Origin: Promethearchaeota archaeon
Lineage (GTDB): Archaea > Asgardarchaeota > Lokiarchaeia > Sigyniarchaeales > SOKP01
NCBI GenBank assembly: GCA_030603385.1
Contig: JAUVXW010000004.1
Coordinates: 93,088-157,087 of the forward strand
Direction of reading: 5' to 3'
Length of the DNA: 64,000 bases
Shown: positions 26,394 to 53,037 of the stretch, one piece after another
How positions within the stretch are numbered: position 1 is the first letter of the stretch
Layout: each line of letters opens with the position of its first letter
Translations under genes and position numbers: made by a program
The notes under the pieces: model-generated
The model's input: only the letters and a program-made list of their open reading frames with translations
The model's database searches: none
Told to the model about the DNA's origin: nothing

Positions 26394-26921
26394 TTAGTTA
26401 AATGTATCGTAAATCTTTTCAATTTCTTTAAGGATTTTTGAATATAGAGCAGAGGATATCCTAAATGTAGTATTTTCTACGAGATGATGGAGAAAATTTT
26501 TACATTTTTCTATACCAACAAATTTTAGGCGTGTTGCTTTGATGAGGACACCTAAAGTACCCGTGACTTTTAAGTCCAAAGTCCTAGCAATTTCCCGTGC
26601 TGCTAAATCATCAATGATAATAATACTTTCACCAGTATTATCCTGAAGTTCCTTTGCAAGGGCTAATACTGACGCTTCTCCGGTATGAATGTGTAATTCC
26701 TCTAGTCTATCAACGAGTTGCCTATTTATTGGTTCCTTTAATAAAAGCCAACTAGAAAAGGAATCTTTTAAAACTGTAAATTCAGCAACATTGTCATCGC
26801 TTAATACCTCTTTTTTAATGATTAATGTGGTGTAACATTCAGTAAAAAGCTTTGGTACTAAAGATAATGCACCAATTTTGCTTAGATATATCAAAGGTGA
26901 AGCATTTATAATTCCAATCAT
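26394..26921 (-). CDS. DUF3368 PIN-domain toxin
   Basis: NASPLI, GEASVL, IIDD..AR and VTGTLGVL motifs. Confidence 0.88.
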   Translation of the reverse strand: MIGIINASPLIYLSKIGALSLVPKLFTECYTTLIIKKEVLSDDNVAEFTVLKDSFSSWLLLKEPINRQLVDRLEELHIHTGEASVLALAKELQDNTGESIIIIDDLAAREIARTLDLKVTGTLGVLIKATRLKFVGIEKCKNFLHHLVENTTFRISSALYSKILKEIEKIYDTFN

Positions 26922-26933
26922 ATTCTTGGCTAT

Positions 26934-27233
26934 TCAATCTAAGGCATATTCAATATCTTCCTTTATAGCTTGTTCATCGTATCCTGATACATTTCGCTTT
27001 TTTAATTCCTCCATCATCTTTCTTAGCGAGACCCCAGCCTTTTCCGCAGCCTTCCAGGCACTCATGTTTTTTTCTCCTACTTGGTTACAAAGAACTACAA
27101 ACATTTCCTCAGATAGACTTTTCTCTAATAATTGACGGATGTAGGATGATTTATCTTTTTTTTTTAATCTTGCCATTAAAAACCTTAACTTTTCATCAAG
27201 ATCATCATCTATTCTTACTGATAGAATTTTCAT
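26934..27233 (-). CDS. UPF0175-family antitoxin (RHH + HTH)
   Basis: LSVRIDD...SAWKAAEKAGVS, upstream of the PIN gene. Confidence 0.85.
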   Translation of the reverse strand: MKILSVRIDDDLDEKLRFLMARLKKKDKSSYIRQLLEKSLSEEMFVVLCNQVGEKNMSAWKAAEKAGVSLRKMMEELKKRNVSGYDEQAIKEDIEYALD

Positions 27234-27277
27234 GATTGTTCTATGTATACTAGATCATCTCTAGTATATATAATTAT

Positions 27278-27466
27278 TTGCAAGGGAGTCATTTTTGGGG
27301 GGATATCTATTATGATGAAAGCTTTGATGTGACTATAGATTCGCTCGATAATGTTTACATTGTTGGTTCTTGTTGTTGCAGTTTTGGGGCAGGATCTAGG
27401 GACATGGTTTTGCTTAAATACATTCAAGATATATTTAAATCAATAATTAATTTTAATCGAATCTAG
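27278..27466 (+). pseudogene. Isolated beta-propeller (SBBP-like) repeat remnant
   Basis: Single repeat DVTIDSLDNVYIVG...SFGAGSRDMVLLKY. Confidence 0.5.
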
Positions 27467-27907
27467 ATAGAGTATAATATGGAGATCATAACCCTATTAC
27501 TAACAGACTGTCGAGATATATACGATTAGATAAAATTCGCAAAAATCTTGAATCTAAATAAGGAACAAGTTTTATTTTTAAATAATATTTTAAGTAATAT
27601 AAAAAAAAATAGTAGTATAGGATATTCGTTAATAAGACTTGATATTTTGGAAGTACAATCGAAAAGAAAATGAGAAATATTATAAGAAAAATTTAAATAT
27701 AGAAATTTTTTTTTTGAGATAAAGCCTATTGTAATCATTTTCTTAGTTTGGAATTTTGTCGTTTATTTTTTTGTATTTTTTTCCCCATAAAATTAAGTAT
27801 GGGCAAAAATCTTTAAATATGTGGAAGATAATTATCTATATAACAAACTCTTGAAAAATAACAAAATTTAATAAAATAATAAAAAATTATTAGTGGAGGA
27901 AAAAAAA

Positions 27908-28186
27908 ATGGCAGGTTCTGAATATATTAGTTGGAGTCCTATTAGGCGCCTTATGAAACTATAATAATCAACTCGATTATTTCTTCAAAATAATGGCGCT
28001 TTAATCGTTGCTCGTGATGCAGTTAACGAGCTCGTTGAATGGATGGGTAGCTCCGCTGAGAAACTTACTAAAAGTGCTTTAACTTTAACTAAACACTCTA
28101 AAAGAAAGAAAATCACGAGCTTCCTTTAGAATTCCTAAAAAAACGTGAAAAATGACATTCTTTTAGCGATTAAATACTTCAAATAA
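27908..28186 (+). CDS. Archaeal histone, 72 aa, three exons (27908-27959, 27990-28119, 28150-28186)
   Basis: Spliced product MAGSEYISWSPIRRLMKHNGALIVARDAVNELVEWMGSSAEKLTKSALTLTKHSKRKKITRNDILLAIKYFK has histone-fold motifs (PIRRLMK; KHSKRKKITRND). GTGGAGG upstream and T-run downstream. Missed by the ORF track because both inserts contain stops. Confidence 0.92.
27960..27989 (+). other. BHB-type mRNA intron 1 of the histone gene (30 nt)
   Basis: Central helix UGAA/UUCA, bulges AC|U and AA|A, exon helix AGGCGCC..UUA/UAA..GGCGCUU. Removal gives AAA CAT AAT. Confidence 0.88.
28120..28149 (+). other. BHB-type mRNA intron 2 of the histone gene (30 nt)
   Basis: Central helix CACG/CGUG, bulges AG|C and AA|A, intron stem UUUAG/CUAAA. 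Removal gives ACG AGA AAT GAC. Confidence 0.88.
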
Positions 28187-28211
28187 GTTAAAGTGAACTT
28201 AAAATTATAAA

Positions 28212-28223
28212 TCTTTTTTTTTT
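28212..28223 (+). terminator. Oligo-T terminator after the histone gene
   Basis: TCTTTTTTTTTT about 25 nt past the stop. Confidence 0.5.
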
Positions 28224-28456
28224 ATTATTATTATTATCTTATCGATAAAATTCAAGTTAAATGTTCCTTTAAAGGCTCTGCATGACAAAACACAGGGCAA
28301 CCATGAGGAAAAGTTTAACAACCATACTTATAGTCTAATTCTCTAATAAAATAGCTTCTTGGATAGGATAAAGAGAGCAGATTGAGTACGTTAGAAACGA
28401 ATCAGAAACACACTTTCAAATGATATACAATAAATAATAGTCTTTTAAAGATAGAC

Positions 28457-28714
28457 TTAATGCTTTTGGAAGCTGGGGGATTTTAGATCAATTATTCGAT
28501 GTTTGCTTGGGTTAAATATCCATTCGTTTTTACATTTTTTAGAACAGAAATAGTGCTTTGGAATTTTTTGAGTGATATTTATAAATACAAATTTATAAGG
28601 CCTATCATAATTACTCTGATACTGTTTTACAGGTTTTCCACACAATTCACAATTTTTTTTCAAGATGATCATACTTTCATTTATTTCTTCTGCGGAATCT
28701 TTAAAAAATTTCAT
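28457..28714 (-). CDS. Small TRASH/zinc-finger-like protein
   Basis: CELCGK...YFCSKKC. Confidence 0.6.
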   Translation of the reverse strand: MKFFKDSAEEINESMIILKKNCELCGKPVKQYQSNYDRPYKFVFINITQKIPKHYFCSKKCKNEWIFNPSKHRIIDLKSPSFQKH

Positions 28715-28854
28715 TTTTTTTCTTTTTTCGCATTTTACAATTTTAGCATCTATTACTTTAACTAATATAATAGTTTGCCTATAAAATTATTGTTTATATT
28801 TATTATAGTAAGATGAAATGAAAAAATAGCAATATATGACGAAAGCTAAAAGTT

Positions 28855-30213
28855 TTAACCTAGATTGATACGACCAATTGCCCTAAAAGATAGATTCTTA
28901 TTGAATATTTCATAATCGTAGATTCTTCTTCCATCTACAAGATTAGGAGTTTTCATGTATTTTTTAAAGTCATCTGGAGTTAATTTTTTAAATTCATCCC
29001 ATTCTGTTATTATTAAGGCACATTCAGAATTTTTTAAGGCGTCTTCAACTGAATTAGCATATTTTATCTTATCTCCTAATTCTATTTCTGCTGTTTCATT
29101 AGCTTTAGGATCATAACCTTCTATATTTGTTACGCCCCTTTTTATTAGTTCATTAATAACTCTAATACTAGCTGCTTCTCGCATATCGTCTGTACCTGGC
29201 TTGAAAGCAAGCCCTAATAAAGTGACTTTTTTACCAGCTAATTTTCCTGTCAATTGTTCAGCAAGATTAACAATATGAATTGCTTGGTCATCATTTATAC
29301 CCAAAACTGCTTCTAATAACCTAGAGGTATACCCTTTAGATTTTGACCAAGCCTTTATAGCGTTCACATCTTTATGGAAACAGGATCCACCAAAACCAAC
29401 TCCTGCTCCTAAAAATCTATGGTTCAATCGATAATCTAGACCCACCCCTTTCATGACCTGAACGATATCAACATTTGGCACCAATTCAGCGAAATTGGCA
29501 AATTCATTTGCATAACTAATCTTAGTTGACAGTAGGCAATTATTTCCATACTTTACTAACTCAGCACTTTCTAAATTCATCCTTAAAATTGGACAATTTT
29601 CTAAATGATCTCCATAAAAATATTCATAAAATTCTTGAAGCATCGCACCACTTTTCTCATCAAACTCTCCAATTACAATTCTATCTGGATGCAAAGTGTC
29701 TTCAATAGAACGACCTTCAGCTAAAAATTCAGGCTGCATGCACAGTCCATAATCTTTTCCTGGTTCTTTACGTGATACTTCATTTATAATCTTAGATACC
29801 AAATTTCGAGTAGTCCCGGGTACTACAGTCGATCTTACAACAATTAGATGATAATTCTCTTTTTTCTTCAATGCCTCTCCAATTTCTCTAGCTGTACTCT
29901 CTATAAAACCTAAATCAATACTTTTATCTTCTCTCATAGGTGTTCCTTGAGTGATCATCGAAATATCTGTTTCTAATACCGCCTTGACGGGATTAGTTAG
30001 GCATTGGAGAAGCTCCGGAACATTTTTTTTAATATTAGTCATCATATCCTGTAATTCCGCTTCAAAAAATGGAGCCTTTCCATCATTAATTATCGCCGCT
30101 TTTTTTTCATTATGTGTGGATGCTAATACTTTTATATTTTTCTCAGCGAAACAAGCAGCAGAGCATAAACCTATAAATCCAGTCCCTAAGATTGAAACTT
30201 TATATTTATACAT
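28855..30213 (-). CDS. UDP-glucose/GDP-mannose 6-dehydrogenase
   Basis: GTGFIG, STVVPGT, PEFLAEG, GFGGSCF and FKPGTDDMRE motifs. Confidence 0.93.
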   Translation of the reverse strand: MYKYKVSILGTGFIGLCSAACFAEKNIKVLASTHNEKKAAIINDGKAPFFEAELQDMMTNIKKNVPELLQCLTNPVKAVLETDISMITQGTPMREDKSIDLGFIESTAREIGEALKKKENYHLIVVRSTVVPGTTRNLVSKIINEVSRKEPGKDYGLCMQPEFLAEGRSIEDTLHPDRIVIGEFDEKSGAMLQEFYEYFYGDHLENCPILRMNLESAELVKYGNNCLLSTKISYANEFANFAELVPNVDIVQVMKGVGLDYRLNHRFLGAGVGFGGSCFHKDVNAIKAWSKSKGYTSRLLEAVLGINDDQAIHIVNLAEQLTGKLAGKKVTLLGLAFKPGTDDMREAASIRVINELIKRGVTNIEGYDPKANETAEIELGDKIKYANSVEDALKNSECALIITEWDEFKKLTPDDFKKYMKTPNLVDGRRIYDYEIFNKNLSFRAIGRINLG

Positions 30214-30481
30214 TATAAATCAATATTAGTATTTTGTTTTTAAATAGTTAAATTTTGAAAAATAGTTAAATTTTCTTTTTCAAACTTATATATAGATACT
30301 AAACTAATGAAACTATATCTTTAATTTAAAGTTAAGAAACATACAAATAAATTTATAATTTAACGAATCTAGTATTAAATTTGTGTTCTCTTCCAATGAA
30401 AGTTGGAAGCATGGGAATTCTATGGGTAGGATTTTAAAATTAATTTTTCAATATTAATACAAAATAAGGTTAAACGATAAA

Positions 30482-52951: not shown

Positions 52952-53037
52952 GCCAGCGTATCCGAGTAGTTTAAGGAGGCGGCCTGCAGAGCCGTTGCTT
53001 TTCAGCATCGTGGGTGCAAATCCCACCGCTGGCTCCA
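52952..53037 (+). tRNA. tRNA-Cys(GCA) with encoded CCA and a long variable arm
   Basis: Acceptor GCCAGCG/CGCTGGC, anticodon stem GCGGC/GCCGT with loop CTGCAGA, T-stem GTGGG/CCCAC, U73 discriminator. Confidence 0.9.

What the first reader, a model, noticed from the sequence alone, without database searches (positions are those of the whole stretch)
28120..28149. Histone intron 2 splits the conserved DNA-binding L2 loop/helix-3 motif
Central helix CACG/CGUG, bulges AG|C and AA|A, intron stem UU..UUUAG/CUAAA..AA, outer exon pairing UAAAAGAA/UUCUUUUA. The insert carries TAG and TAA in frame. Splicing forms AG|A (Arg) and restores KRKKITRNDI, with the histone-fold Arg-to-Asp spacing. Two introns in a 219-nt coding sequence would make histone supply depend on two splicing events.
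Basis: partly seen in the sequence, partly recalled or inferred. Interest (0 to 1): 0.88.

Follow-up and report, generated by a model that had tools for sequence, protein, structure and literature searches.

The report
Second tRNA-type intron in histone gene
A histone gene of an Asgard archaeon is broken twice by 30-base inserts shaped like tRNA introns. Cutting out the one examined here at its predicted sites rebuilds the protein's DNA-binding end exactly, a kind of mRNA splicing that the papers I could search report for only one other archaeal coding gene.

Summary
Window 28120-28149 is a 30-nt insert that an intact paralog elsewhere in this genome lacks. Removing it restores KRKKITRNDI.

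It folds as a relaxed bulge-helix-bulge (BHB) motif:
- central helix CACG/CGUG
- bulges AG|C and AA|A
- an inner hairpin
- a distal 9-bp exon-exon helix

A second 30-nt BHB insert lies at 27960-27989.

Three other species carry an insert at the same site. One of them (G097) differs by five compensatory base-pair changes. One 99%-complete relative has only intron-bearing copies of this near-universal histone subfamily. The genome encodes two EndA subunits and one RtcB.

Best reading (about 0.8): a tRNA-type intron cut from the histone pre-mRNA by EndA and rejoined by RtcB.

Caveats:
- No public RNA run covers the gene.
- This copy's fold is weak.
- This genome also holds an intact paralog, so here histone supply does not depend on splicing.

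The scan has reported the same kind of mini-intron on other DNA of this genome (another histone gene, uL11, uvrB, rpoA and others). In the papers searched, only cbf5 is reported as a spliced archaeal coding sequence.

The parts
27895..27899 (+). GGAGG ribosome-binding-like motif 8 nt upstream of the ATG, preceded by an A/T-rich promoter-like stretch
   Evidence: Read directly. The block AGTGGAGG is conserved in all four intron-2 carriers and in the intact paralog. The 5' flank 27851-27907 is 94.7% identical to G091, against 82-86% for the surrounding intergenic DNA.
27908..27959 (+). Exon 1 (Met1 to the first base of His18)
   Evidence: Alignment with the intact paralog and the spliced translation.
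27960..27989 (+). Intron 1: 30 nt, BHB-type, carrying two in-frame TAA codons
   Evidence: Central helix UGAA/UUCA, bulges AC|U and AA|A, a 7-bp inner hairpin and a 10-bp outer exon helix. Fold z = -5.4. The four substitutions seen across the three carriers all fall in the 5-nt hairpin loop.
27990..28119 (+). Exon 2 (rest of His18 to the first two bases of Arg61); the core of the histone fold
   Evidence: As a fragment it matches PF00808 at E = 0.0018, 19 bits, below the 21.4-bit cut-off. It is 96-97% identical to G091 and G113.
28098..28106 (+). 5' strand of the distal exon-exon helix (CUAAAAGAA)
   Evidence: Pairs 9 of 9 with 28158-28166. There are two compensatory pairs against G097. The helix is 9/9 only in site-d carriers and 5-8/9 in 66 other family members.
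28114..28117 (+). Exonic strand of the central BHB helix (CACG)
   Evidence: Pairs with 28144-28147. The pair C-G becomes U-A in G097. Thr codon ACG followed by AG is found in all four site-d carriers. Among the 66 sequences without an intron at this site it is found once, in G023's intron-a-bearing gene.
28118..28120 (+). 5' bulge AG|C; the predicted cut is after 28119
   Evidence: Three unpaired bases in the minimum-energy fold. The cut position matches the paralog junction.
28120..28149 (+). Intron 2: 30 nt, BHB-type, the finding itself, carrying in-frame TAG and TAA
   Evidence: Absent from the intact paralog. Kept at the same site in G091, G113 and G097.
28121..28143 (+). Inner hairpin h' (UU..UUUAG, loop AAUUC, CUAAA..AA)
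   Evidence: Seven of nine pairs in this genome. G097 has a perfect 10-bp hairpin in the same place.
28144..28147 (+). Intronic strand of the central helix (CGUG)
28148..28150 (+). 3' splice-site triplet AA|A; the predicted cut is after 28149
   Evidence: Same register as all other inserts of this histone family, where the 3' triplet is always AA|A or AA|G. In this copy it lies in a larger internal loop, not a closed 3-nt bulge.
28150..28186 (+). Exon 3 (last base of Arg61 to Lys72, plus TAA); helix 3 of the histone fold
   Evidence: 100% identical to G091.
28158..28166 (+). 3' strand of the distal exon-exon helix (UUCUUUUAG)
28214..28223 (+). Run of ten T, a likely archaeal transcription stop
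   Evidence: Read directly. A T-run is kept in all four carriers. Its function is inferred.

Best explanation
Window 28120-28149 is a tRNA-type (bulge-helix-bulge) mini-intron inside the coding sequence of an archaeal histone gene.

Proposed mechanism:
1. In the pre-mRNA, the exon bases CACG pair with the intron's own 3' end CGUG.
2. This presents the 5' cut site in a 3-nt bulge next to an intron hairpin. The 3' cut site lies two bases past the helix.
3. The heteromeric splicing endonuclease EndA (alpha and beta subunits) cuts after 28119 and after 28149.
4. RtcB joins the ends, creating the Arg61 codon AG|A.

Together with removal of intron 1 (27960-27989), this gives a 72-residue histone.

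What is shown and what is inferred:
- Shown here: the anatomy, the exact junction, conservation with compensatory change, and the presence of the enzyme genes.
- Inferred: cleavage, ligation and translation of the product.
For: 1. Exact junction. There are two clean 30-nt insertions relative to the intact paralog. The only product-preserving register has a 4/4 central helix.

2. Family-wide pattern.
- Twelve inserts at five different sites were checked by script.
- Eleven have a 4/4 central helix in a register that removes a clean 30-31 nt.
- G091's site-d insert has 3/4.
- G097's insert, read by eye because the aligner mis-split it, has 4/4.
- In each case the intron's 3' end is complementary to its own exon context.
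- A fixed-sequence mobile element would not show this tailoring.

3. Covariation. G097's intron at the same site differs at five pairs on both sides: one in the central helix, two in the inner hairpin and two in the distal exon helix. None of 500 shuffles and no slid register reaches this. Its fold has z = -6.3.

4. Exon codons fit the intron.
- The distal helix is 9/9 only in carriers and 5-8/9 in 66 others.
- Thr-ACG followed by AG occurs in 4 of 4 carriers.
- It occurs in only 1 of the 66 sequences without an intron at this site.

5. Necessity in relatives.
- The subfamily is present in 80 of 81 genomes sampled from the family.
- In G113 (99% complete), both copies carry two introns each.
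- In G097 (86% complete), the only copy carries this intron.

6. The gene looks alive.
- No stop or frameshift occurs in the exons of any carrier.
- Against G091, exons differ by 2.7%, introns by 6.7% and flanking intergenic DNA by 14-18%.

7. Machinery. Two EndA paralogs of about 200 aa and one RtcB are present. Asgard archaea are reported to have the broad-specificity (alpha-beta)2 EndA with the L1 loop (PMC5829648).

8. The genome's single uL11 gene has a 37-nt frame-breaking insert. Removing it at a BHB register restores the conserved GGPPIGP motif.
Against: - No RNA evidence: none of the RNA or RNA-labelled runs laid held a contig on the gene.
- This copy's fold is weak. z = -1.85 for 80 nt and -1.1 for the core, and the inner stem has a 2x2 mismatch.
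- The 3' cut site sits in a 7x7 internal loop closed only by a distal helix, so the motif is relaxed, not canonical.
- G091 has a G-A mismatch in the central helix.
- Within the three two-intron species, dN/dS is 0.25-0.6 on 6-10 substitutions. Intronless paralogs give 0.03-0.08.
- This genome holds an intact close paralog, so nothing here forces the gene to be functional.
- The intron is rare: 4 of 135 family genomes.
Confidence: 0.8

Rival explanations
1. Decaying spare copy. The inserts did arise as BHB-type introns, but this two-intron paralog is no longer needed in this lineage. It is spliced poorly or not at all, and the intact paralog on contig C10 supplies the protein.
For: - An intact paralog exists in this genome, and G091 has two.
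- dN/dS is raised inside the two-intron clade.
- Intron 2 folds weakly here.
- G091 has a mismatch in the central helix.
- G113's copy lost its stop codon and runs on for six more residues before the next stop.
Against: - Exons and promoter are far better conserved than the flanking DNA.
- No stop or frameshift occurs in any exon in four species.
- Five of the six amino-acid replacements fall at positions, and to residues, also seen in intact family members.
- All four substitutions in intron 1 spare its stems.
- G113 has no intronless copy to fall back on.
Confidence: 0.13
2. Not an intron at all. The 30-nt inserts are small DNA-level insertions or repeats that stay in the mRNA. Either the gene is simply broken, or the stops are read through or recoded.
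For: Both inserts are multiples of three and stay in frame. No RNA data exclude retention.
Against: - Four in-frame stops (TAA, TAA, TAG, TAA) would all need recoding, while the gene itself ends in TAA.
- Two extra 10-residue inserts would disrupt a 69-72-residue fold that 80 of 81 relatives keep uninterrupted.
- Intron d has no other near-identical copy in the genome, so it is not a repeat family here.
- The reverse-complement match between each insert's 3' end and its own upstream exon is unexplained by insertion.
- The compensatory changes are likewise unexplained.
Confidence: 0.03
3. Assembly or binning artefact: the inserts are errors of one metagenome assembly.
For: The genome is a 58-contig assembly with 7% estimated contamination.
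Against: The same two inserts occur in two other species' assemblies at 92-95% identity, and intron 2 occurs in a fourth. The stretch 26900-30300 around the gene is held by DNA runs of about ten studies.
Confidence: 0.01

Closest known systems
BHB intron in the cbf5 (pseudouridine synthase) pre-mRNA of Crenarchaeota (Watanabe 2002; Yoshinari 2006; Yokobori 2009, PMC2738675)
   Same: A short intron inside an archaeal coding sequence, recognised by its BHB shape and removed by a heteromeric splicing endonuclease. It is gained and lost along lineages.
   Different: - Different gene (a histone) and a different lineage (Asgard).
- Two introns in one 219-nt coding sequence.
- A uniform 30-nt size.
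- At least five insertion sites within one small gene family.
- Splicing is demonstrated for cbf5 but not here.
Non-canonical tRNA introns of Asgard archaea (PMC11291895; bioRxiv 10.64898/2026.10.13.758758)
   Same: The same motif and presumably the same enzymes. Both show many positions, repeated gains and multiple introns per gene.
   Different: Those papers treat tRNA genes only. The text search found no mention of mRNA in the 2026 preprint, and neither paper reports introns in coding genes. Here the host is an mRNA, so splicing must also keep the reading frame.
BHB intron in the 5' UTR of HVO_1309 mRNA, Haloferax volcanii (PMC7714728)
   Same: An mRNA that is a substrate of the archaeal splicing endonuclease, confirmed in vivo and in vitro.
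   Different: It lies in the untranslated leader, not in the coding sequence, and it is cut by a homodimeric-type enzyme.
HAC1/XBP1 unconventional mRNA splicing in eukaryotes (own knowledge; the RtcB link is cited in PMC5829648, refs 5-7)
   Same: Spliceosome-independent removal of a short intron from an mRNA by an endonuclease acting on stem-loops, followed by an RtcB-type or tRNA ligase. Removal changes the protein's C-terminal part.
   Different: The cutting enzyme is Ire1, not EndA. The event is stress-regulated. No BHB motif is involved.

Membership tests
Archaeal BHB intron (EndA/RtcB-spliced) | Four-base-pair central helix between the exon and the intron's 3' end | tested here: met
   CACG (28114-28117) pairs with CGUG (28144-28147), 4 of 4 Watson-Crick. 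It is kept as UACG/CGUA in G097 through a change on both sides. G091 has 3 of 4.
Archaeal BHB intron (EndA/RtcB-spliced) | Three-nucleotide 5' bulge followed by an intron helix (h') | tested here: met
   AG|C is unpaired in the minimum-energy fold and is followed by a hairpin with 7 of 9 pairs. G097 has a perfect 10-bp hairpin.
Archaeal BHB intron (EndA/RtcB-spliced) | Three-nucleotide 3' bulge closed by an adjacent exon helix (h), as in the canonical hBHBh' form | tested here: not met
   After AA|A only one U-A pair is adjacent. The 9-bp exon helix lies beyond a 7x7 internal loop. The motif is therefore the relaxed HBh' type. The literature assigns that type to (alpha-beta)2 and epsilon2 enzymes (PMC5829648).
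Archaeal BHB intron (EndA/RtcB-spliced) | Cuts at the symmetric bulge positions give a functional, in-frame junction | tested here: met
   Cutting after 28119 and after 28149 gives AG|A (Arg) and KRKKITRNDI, matching the intact paralog.
Archaeal BHB intron (EndA/RtcB-spliced) | Structure kept by compensatory change in relatives | tested here: met
   Five pairs change on both sides, and no shuffle of 500 reaches this. The comparison has only two independent lineages, so the sample is small.
Archaeal BHB intron (EndA/RtcB-spliced) | Broad-specificity splicing endonuclease and RNA ligase encoded in the genome | tested here: met
   Two PF01974 genes with open frames of about 200 aa, and one RtcB gene. 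I did not check the subunit assignment (alpha versus beta) or the L1 loop.
Archaeal BHB intron (EndA/RtcB-spliced) | Intron absent from the mature RNA | not testable with these tools
   No contig of the RNA or RNA-labelled runs laid lies on 27500-28600.
Archaeal histone (HMf type, PF00808) | Sequence match to the histone-fold family over all three helices | tested here: met
   - Exon 2 alone scores 19 bits, below the 21.4-bit cut-off.
- The intact paralog, 88% identical to the spliced product, scores 36.8 bits.
- The paralog aligns end to end with HPhA, HMfA and HMfB.
- The spliced product itself could not be submitted, because it has no reference.
Archaeal histone (HMf type, PF00808) | Conserved L2 Arg and helix-3 Asp at a fixed spacing | tested here: met
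   After splicing, R56 and D63 are seven residues apart, as in the aligned HPhA 'RKTVKVED'. Unspliced, the gap is 17 residues with two stops.
Pseudogene | Stops or frameshifts in exons; neutral evolution | tested here: inconclusive
   No exon lesions occur in four species, and exons are more conserved than the flanks. However, dN/dS of 0.25-0.6 inside the young clade cannot be told from neutrality on 6-10 changes.

The most novel reading that the evidence does not exclude
The 30-nt BHB mini-introns of this Asgard lineage are a spreading population that copies itself to new sites in mRNAs.

Supporting observations:
- Intron 2 (site d) shares 21-22 of 30 bases with the intron at site c, 17 nt upstream, in another histone gene.
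- The two differ mainly in the four bases that must pair with the local exon.
- Five sites are occupied within one 70-codon gene family.

[quoted passage not shown] Gain would occur by reverse splicing or a similar copy mechanism, using only tRNA-splicing enzymes.
Probability: 0.25. Interest if true: 0.9.

Novelty: new member of a known kind. Interest (0 to 1): 0.72.

Why it matters
- In the papers I could search, the only spliced archaeal coding sequence is cbf5. A 2020 study states this outright (PMC7714728). No paper found describes BHB introns in Asgard protein-coding genes or in any histone gene.
- A histone gene that needs two endonuclease-ligase splicing events would show that mRNA splicing by the tRNA machinery is more than a one-gene curiosity. 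[quoted passage not shown]
- Standard gene callers will miss or truncate such genes. The Pfam scan of this genome missed this one.
- Different introns at five sites in one small family give a tractable system for asking how introns are gained.

Tried and rejected
- **Transcript evidence.**
  - The run search found one RNA run and two 'metatranscriptomic WGS' runs holding 5-6% of the words of 26900-30300.
  - Laid on 27500-28600, they gave no contig at all.
  - Splicing is therefore neither shown nor contradicted.
  - The DNA run X1 covers only parts of the stretch.
- **Genome-wide scan of my own.**
  - I looked for BHB-shaped inserts of 14-80 nt whose removal fuses two open frames.
  - It gave about 6,700 candidates. 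Decoy geometries with the 3' strand slid by 2 nt either way gave the same number.
  - The filter was dominated by tandem genes and said nothing, so I dropped it.
- **Synteny.** Only G091 shares the flanking genes. G113's copy matches over about 400 nt only. Orthology therefore rests on the gene tree.
- **Single or double origin of the site-d intron.**
  - The tree does not unite G097 with the two-intron clade.
  - The AU test does not reject uniting them either (p = 0.295).
  - The question stays open.
- **Alternative genetic code or read-through.** Rejected: four stops of two kinds would need recoding, and the gene ends in TAA.
- **Shifted helix register in G091 (UCAC/GUGA).** It would remove 32 nt and create a TGA, so it cannot rescue that copy's mismatch (worked out).
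- **Repeat family.** A blastn-short search of intron 2 against the genome found no second copy.
- **PDB sequence search.** At E = 1e-5 it found nothing. At E = 1 it found the archaeal histones.
- **Spliced protein.** It was not sent to database tools because it has no reference.

Full report
**What is there**

The window is part of contig C36 of a 3.9-Mb, 31% G+C archaeal assembly.
- Earlier notes of this scan call it an Asgard (Promethearchaeota, Loki-type) archaeon.
- My only check of that label is indirect: the nearest Atlas cluster of its histone is 'Archaea 100%, commonest Promethearchaeota'.

At 27908-28186 (+) an open frame starts MAGSEYISWSPIRRLMK. It runs into TAA TAA, resumes as a histone core, runs into TAG and TAA, and ends ...NDILLAIKYFK*. 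The whole stretch stays in one frame.

A Pfam scan of the genome finds four other histone genes but misses this one. One of the four, on C10 (P0001), is intact. Aligned with the window gene it shows two clean 30-nt insertions, at 27960-27989 and 28120-28149. Removing both gives a 72-residue protein, 88% identical to P0001. The finding's coordinates are exactly the second insertion.

**The structure**

The archaeal rule is a 4-bp helix flanked by two 3-nt bulges, with a cut after the second bulge base.
- Under this rule, the only register that yields the paralog's product pairs CACG (28114-28117) with CGUG (28144-28147). The bulges are AG|C and AA|A.
- Between them the intron forms a hairpin: UU, a 2x2 mismatch, UUUAG, then a 5-nt loop.
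- A 9-bp helix joins exon 2 (28098-28106) to exon 3 (28158-28166).
- The unconstrained minimum-energy fold of 28093-28172 gives these same helices.

The motif is relaxed rather than canonical. The 3' cut site lies in a 7x7 internal loop, with one adjacent U-A pair.

The fold is weak: z = -1.85, and 12 of 200 shuffles fold as well. The geometry is not cheap, though. A Watson-Crick 4/4 central helix plus at least 7 of 9 inner pairs at a 30-nt spacing occurs at 2e-4 of genome positions.

Intron 1 is a stronger example: UGAA/UUCA, AC|U, AA|A, a 10-bp outer helix, z = -5.4.

**Relatives**

A protein search of 81 genomes of the family finds this histone subfamily in 80, almost always uninterrupted. 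I built a covariance model of the intron-2 region and searched 54 genus genomes and 135 family genomes with it.
- It finds the insert at this site in four genomes only.
- This genome, G091 and G113 all carry both introns at 92-95% DNA identity.
- G097 carries intron 2 only.

G097's intron has a different sequence but the same shape:
- central helix UACG/CGUA
- a perfect 10-bp hairpin
- distal helix CCAAGAGAA/UUCUCUUGG
- fold z = -6.3

Against the window's version, five pairs change on both sides. Zero of 500 shuffles and no slid register reaches that. Only two independent lineages are compared, so this is good evidence but thin.

The exons are fitted to the intron.
- The distal helix is 9/9 only in the four carriers and 5-8/9 in 66 other family members.
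- The exon hexamer YACGAG, with the Thr codon ACG, is in all four carriers.
- Among the 66 sequences without a site-d intron it occurs once, in G023's intron-a-bearing gene.

**A family habit**

The same small histone family carries 30-31-nt inserts at four further sites in other genomes:
- after Lys17/His18 (site a, also in another genus)
- after Ala21 (site b)
- after Lys55 (site c)
- after Asp63 (site e)

Twelve inserts were checked by script.
- Eleven have a 4/4 central helix in a register that removes a clean 30-31 nt.
- G091's site-d insert has 3/4.
- The 3' triplet is always AA|A.
- G097's insert, which the aligner mis-split, reads UACG/CGUA with AA|G by eye.

In each case the intron's last bases before AA are the reverse complement of its own upstream exon. 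That is what a BHB intron needs, and an inserted element would not provide it.

Intron 2 and the site-c intron share 21-22 of 30 bases, a level reached by 2 of 100,000 shuffles. They differ mainly in the exon-pairing bases.

**Is the gene alive?**

For:
- No exon lesion occurs in any carrier.
- Against G091, exons differ by 2.7%, introns by 6.7% and neighbouring intergenic DNA by 14-18%. The promoter-proximal 57 nt are also conserved.
- All four substitutions in intron 1 fall in its 5-nt loop.
- G113 (99% complete) has no intronless copy of the subfamily. Its two copies carry two introns each.
- G097 (86% complete) has only the intron-bearing copy.

Against:
- Inside the young two-intron clade, dN/dS is 0.25-0.6 on 6-10 changes. 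Intronless paralogs give 0.03-0.08.
- G091 has a G-A mismatch in the central helix.
- G113's copy lost its stop codon.
- This genome has an intact paralog.

**Machinery**

Two EndA-domain genes of about 200 aa and one RtcB gene are present. This fits the (alpha-beta)2 enzyme with the L1 loop that the literature assigns to Asgard archaea. That type accepts relaxed motifs (PMC5829648).

As a spot check that mRNAs are substrates here, I looked at the genome's single uL11 gene. It has a 37-nt frame-breaking insert, and removing it at a BHB register restores GGSASGGPPIGP.

**Transcripts**

None could be had. The RNA runs found hold no contig on the gene.

**Position in the protein**

The paralog aligns end to end with HPhA and HMfA.
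- The split codon (Arg61) lies between the L2 'RKK' residues and the conserved helix-3 Asp.
- Unspliced mRNA would give an 18-residue peptide.
- Removing intron 1 alone would give a 63-residue protein lacking helix 3.

**Known or new**

The papers I could search report one spliced archaeal coding sequence, cbf5, and one 5'-UTR case in Haloferax.
- Asgard studies describe abundant tRNA introns only.
- No paper found describes introns in histone genes.
- This scan has already reported the same kind of mini-intron on other contigs of this genome.

The mechanism is therefore a known kind. This is a new member, notable for two introns in one 219-nt gene and for signs of site-to-site spread.

**Verdict**

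The intron reading is supported at about 0.8, short of RNA proof.

Noticed in passing
window 27960-27989: Intron 1 of the same gene is a near-canonical BHB: UGAA/UUCA, AC|U, AA|A, a 10-bp outer helix, z = -5.4. All four substitutions seen among the three carrier species fall in its 5-nt hairpin loop. A gene in another genus (G023, L067) has a different 30-nt intron at exactly this site, with the same central helix.
   Followed up: partly
L004:1296-1325 (G000:C6): A more distant histone paralog of this genome looks truncated (…RHAGRKNF*). It has a 30-nt insert with a BHB register (GAAG/CUUU, AA|U, AU|A). Removing it gives …GRKKLTLGDMDLAMTIL*.
   Followed up: partly
L066:599-628 (G113:C12) compared with window 28120-28149: The intron at site c of another histone gene shares 21-22 of 30 bases with intron 2 (2 of 100,000 shuffles reach this). 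The differences are concentrated in the four exon-pairing bases. This hints that these introns are copied between sites.
   Followed up: partly
L037 (G113:C6:145005-148412): G113's two-intron copy is 92% identical to the window over only about 400 nt (promoter, gene, terminator). The flanks are unrelated (52-63% identity). The small gene cassette has therefore moved or been transferred between species. This copy also lost its stop (TAA to TCA) and runs on for six more residues before the next stop.
   Followed up: partly
L108:1871-1907 (G000:C41:68091-68127, minus strand): The only uL11 gene of the genome carries a 37-nt frame-breaking insert (UGGG/CUCA, AG|U, AA|U). Removing it restores the conserved GGPPIGP motif.
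   Followed up: partly
window 52952-53037: tRNA-Cys (GCA) is 86 nt long and has an extra 4-bp hairpin (UGCU-UUUC-AGCA) where the short variable loop should be. It could be a mini-intron or an unusual extra arm. No clear BHB register was found.
   Followed up: partly
window 27926-27959: In the cold-seep DNA run X1, a short contig matches exon 1 up to its last base and then continues with intronless histone sequence (…ATAACGGTGCTGTTAT). It is DNA of a relative or allele without intron 1, not evidence of splicing.
   Followed up: no
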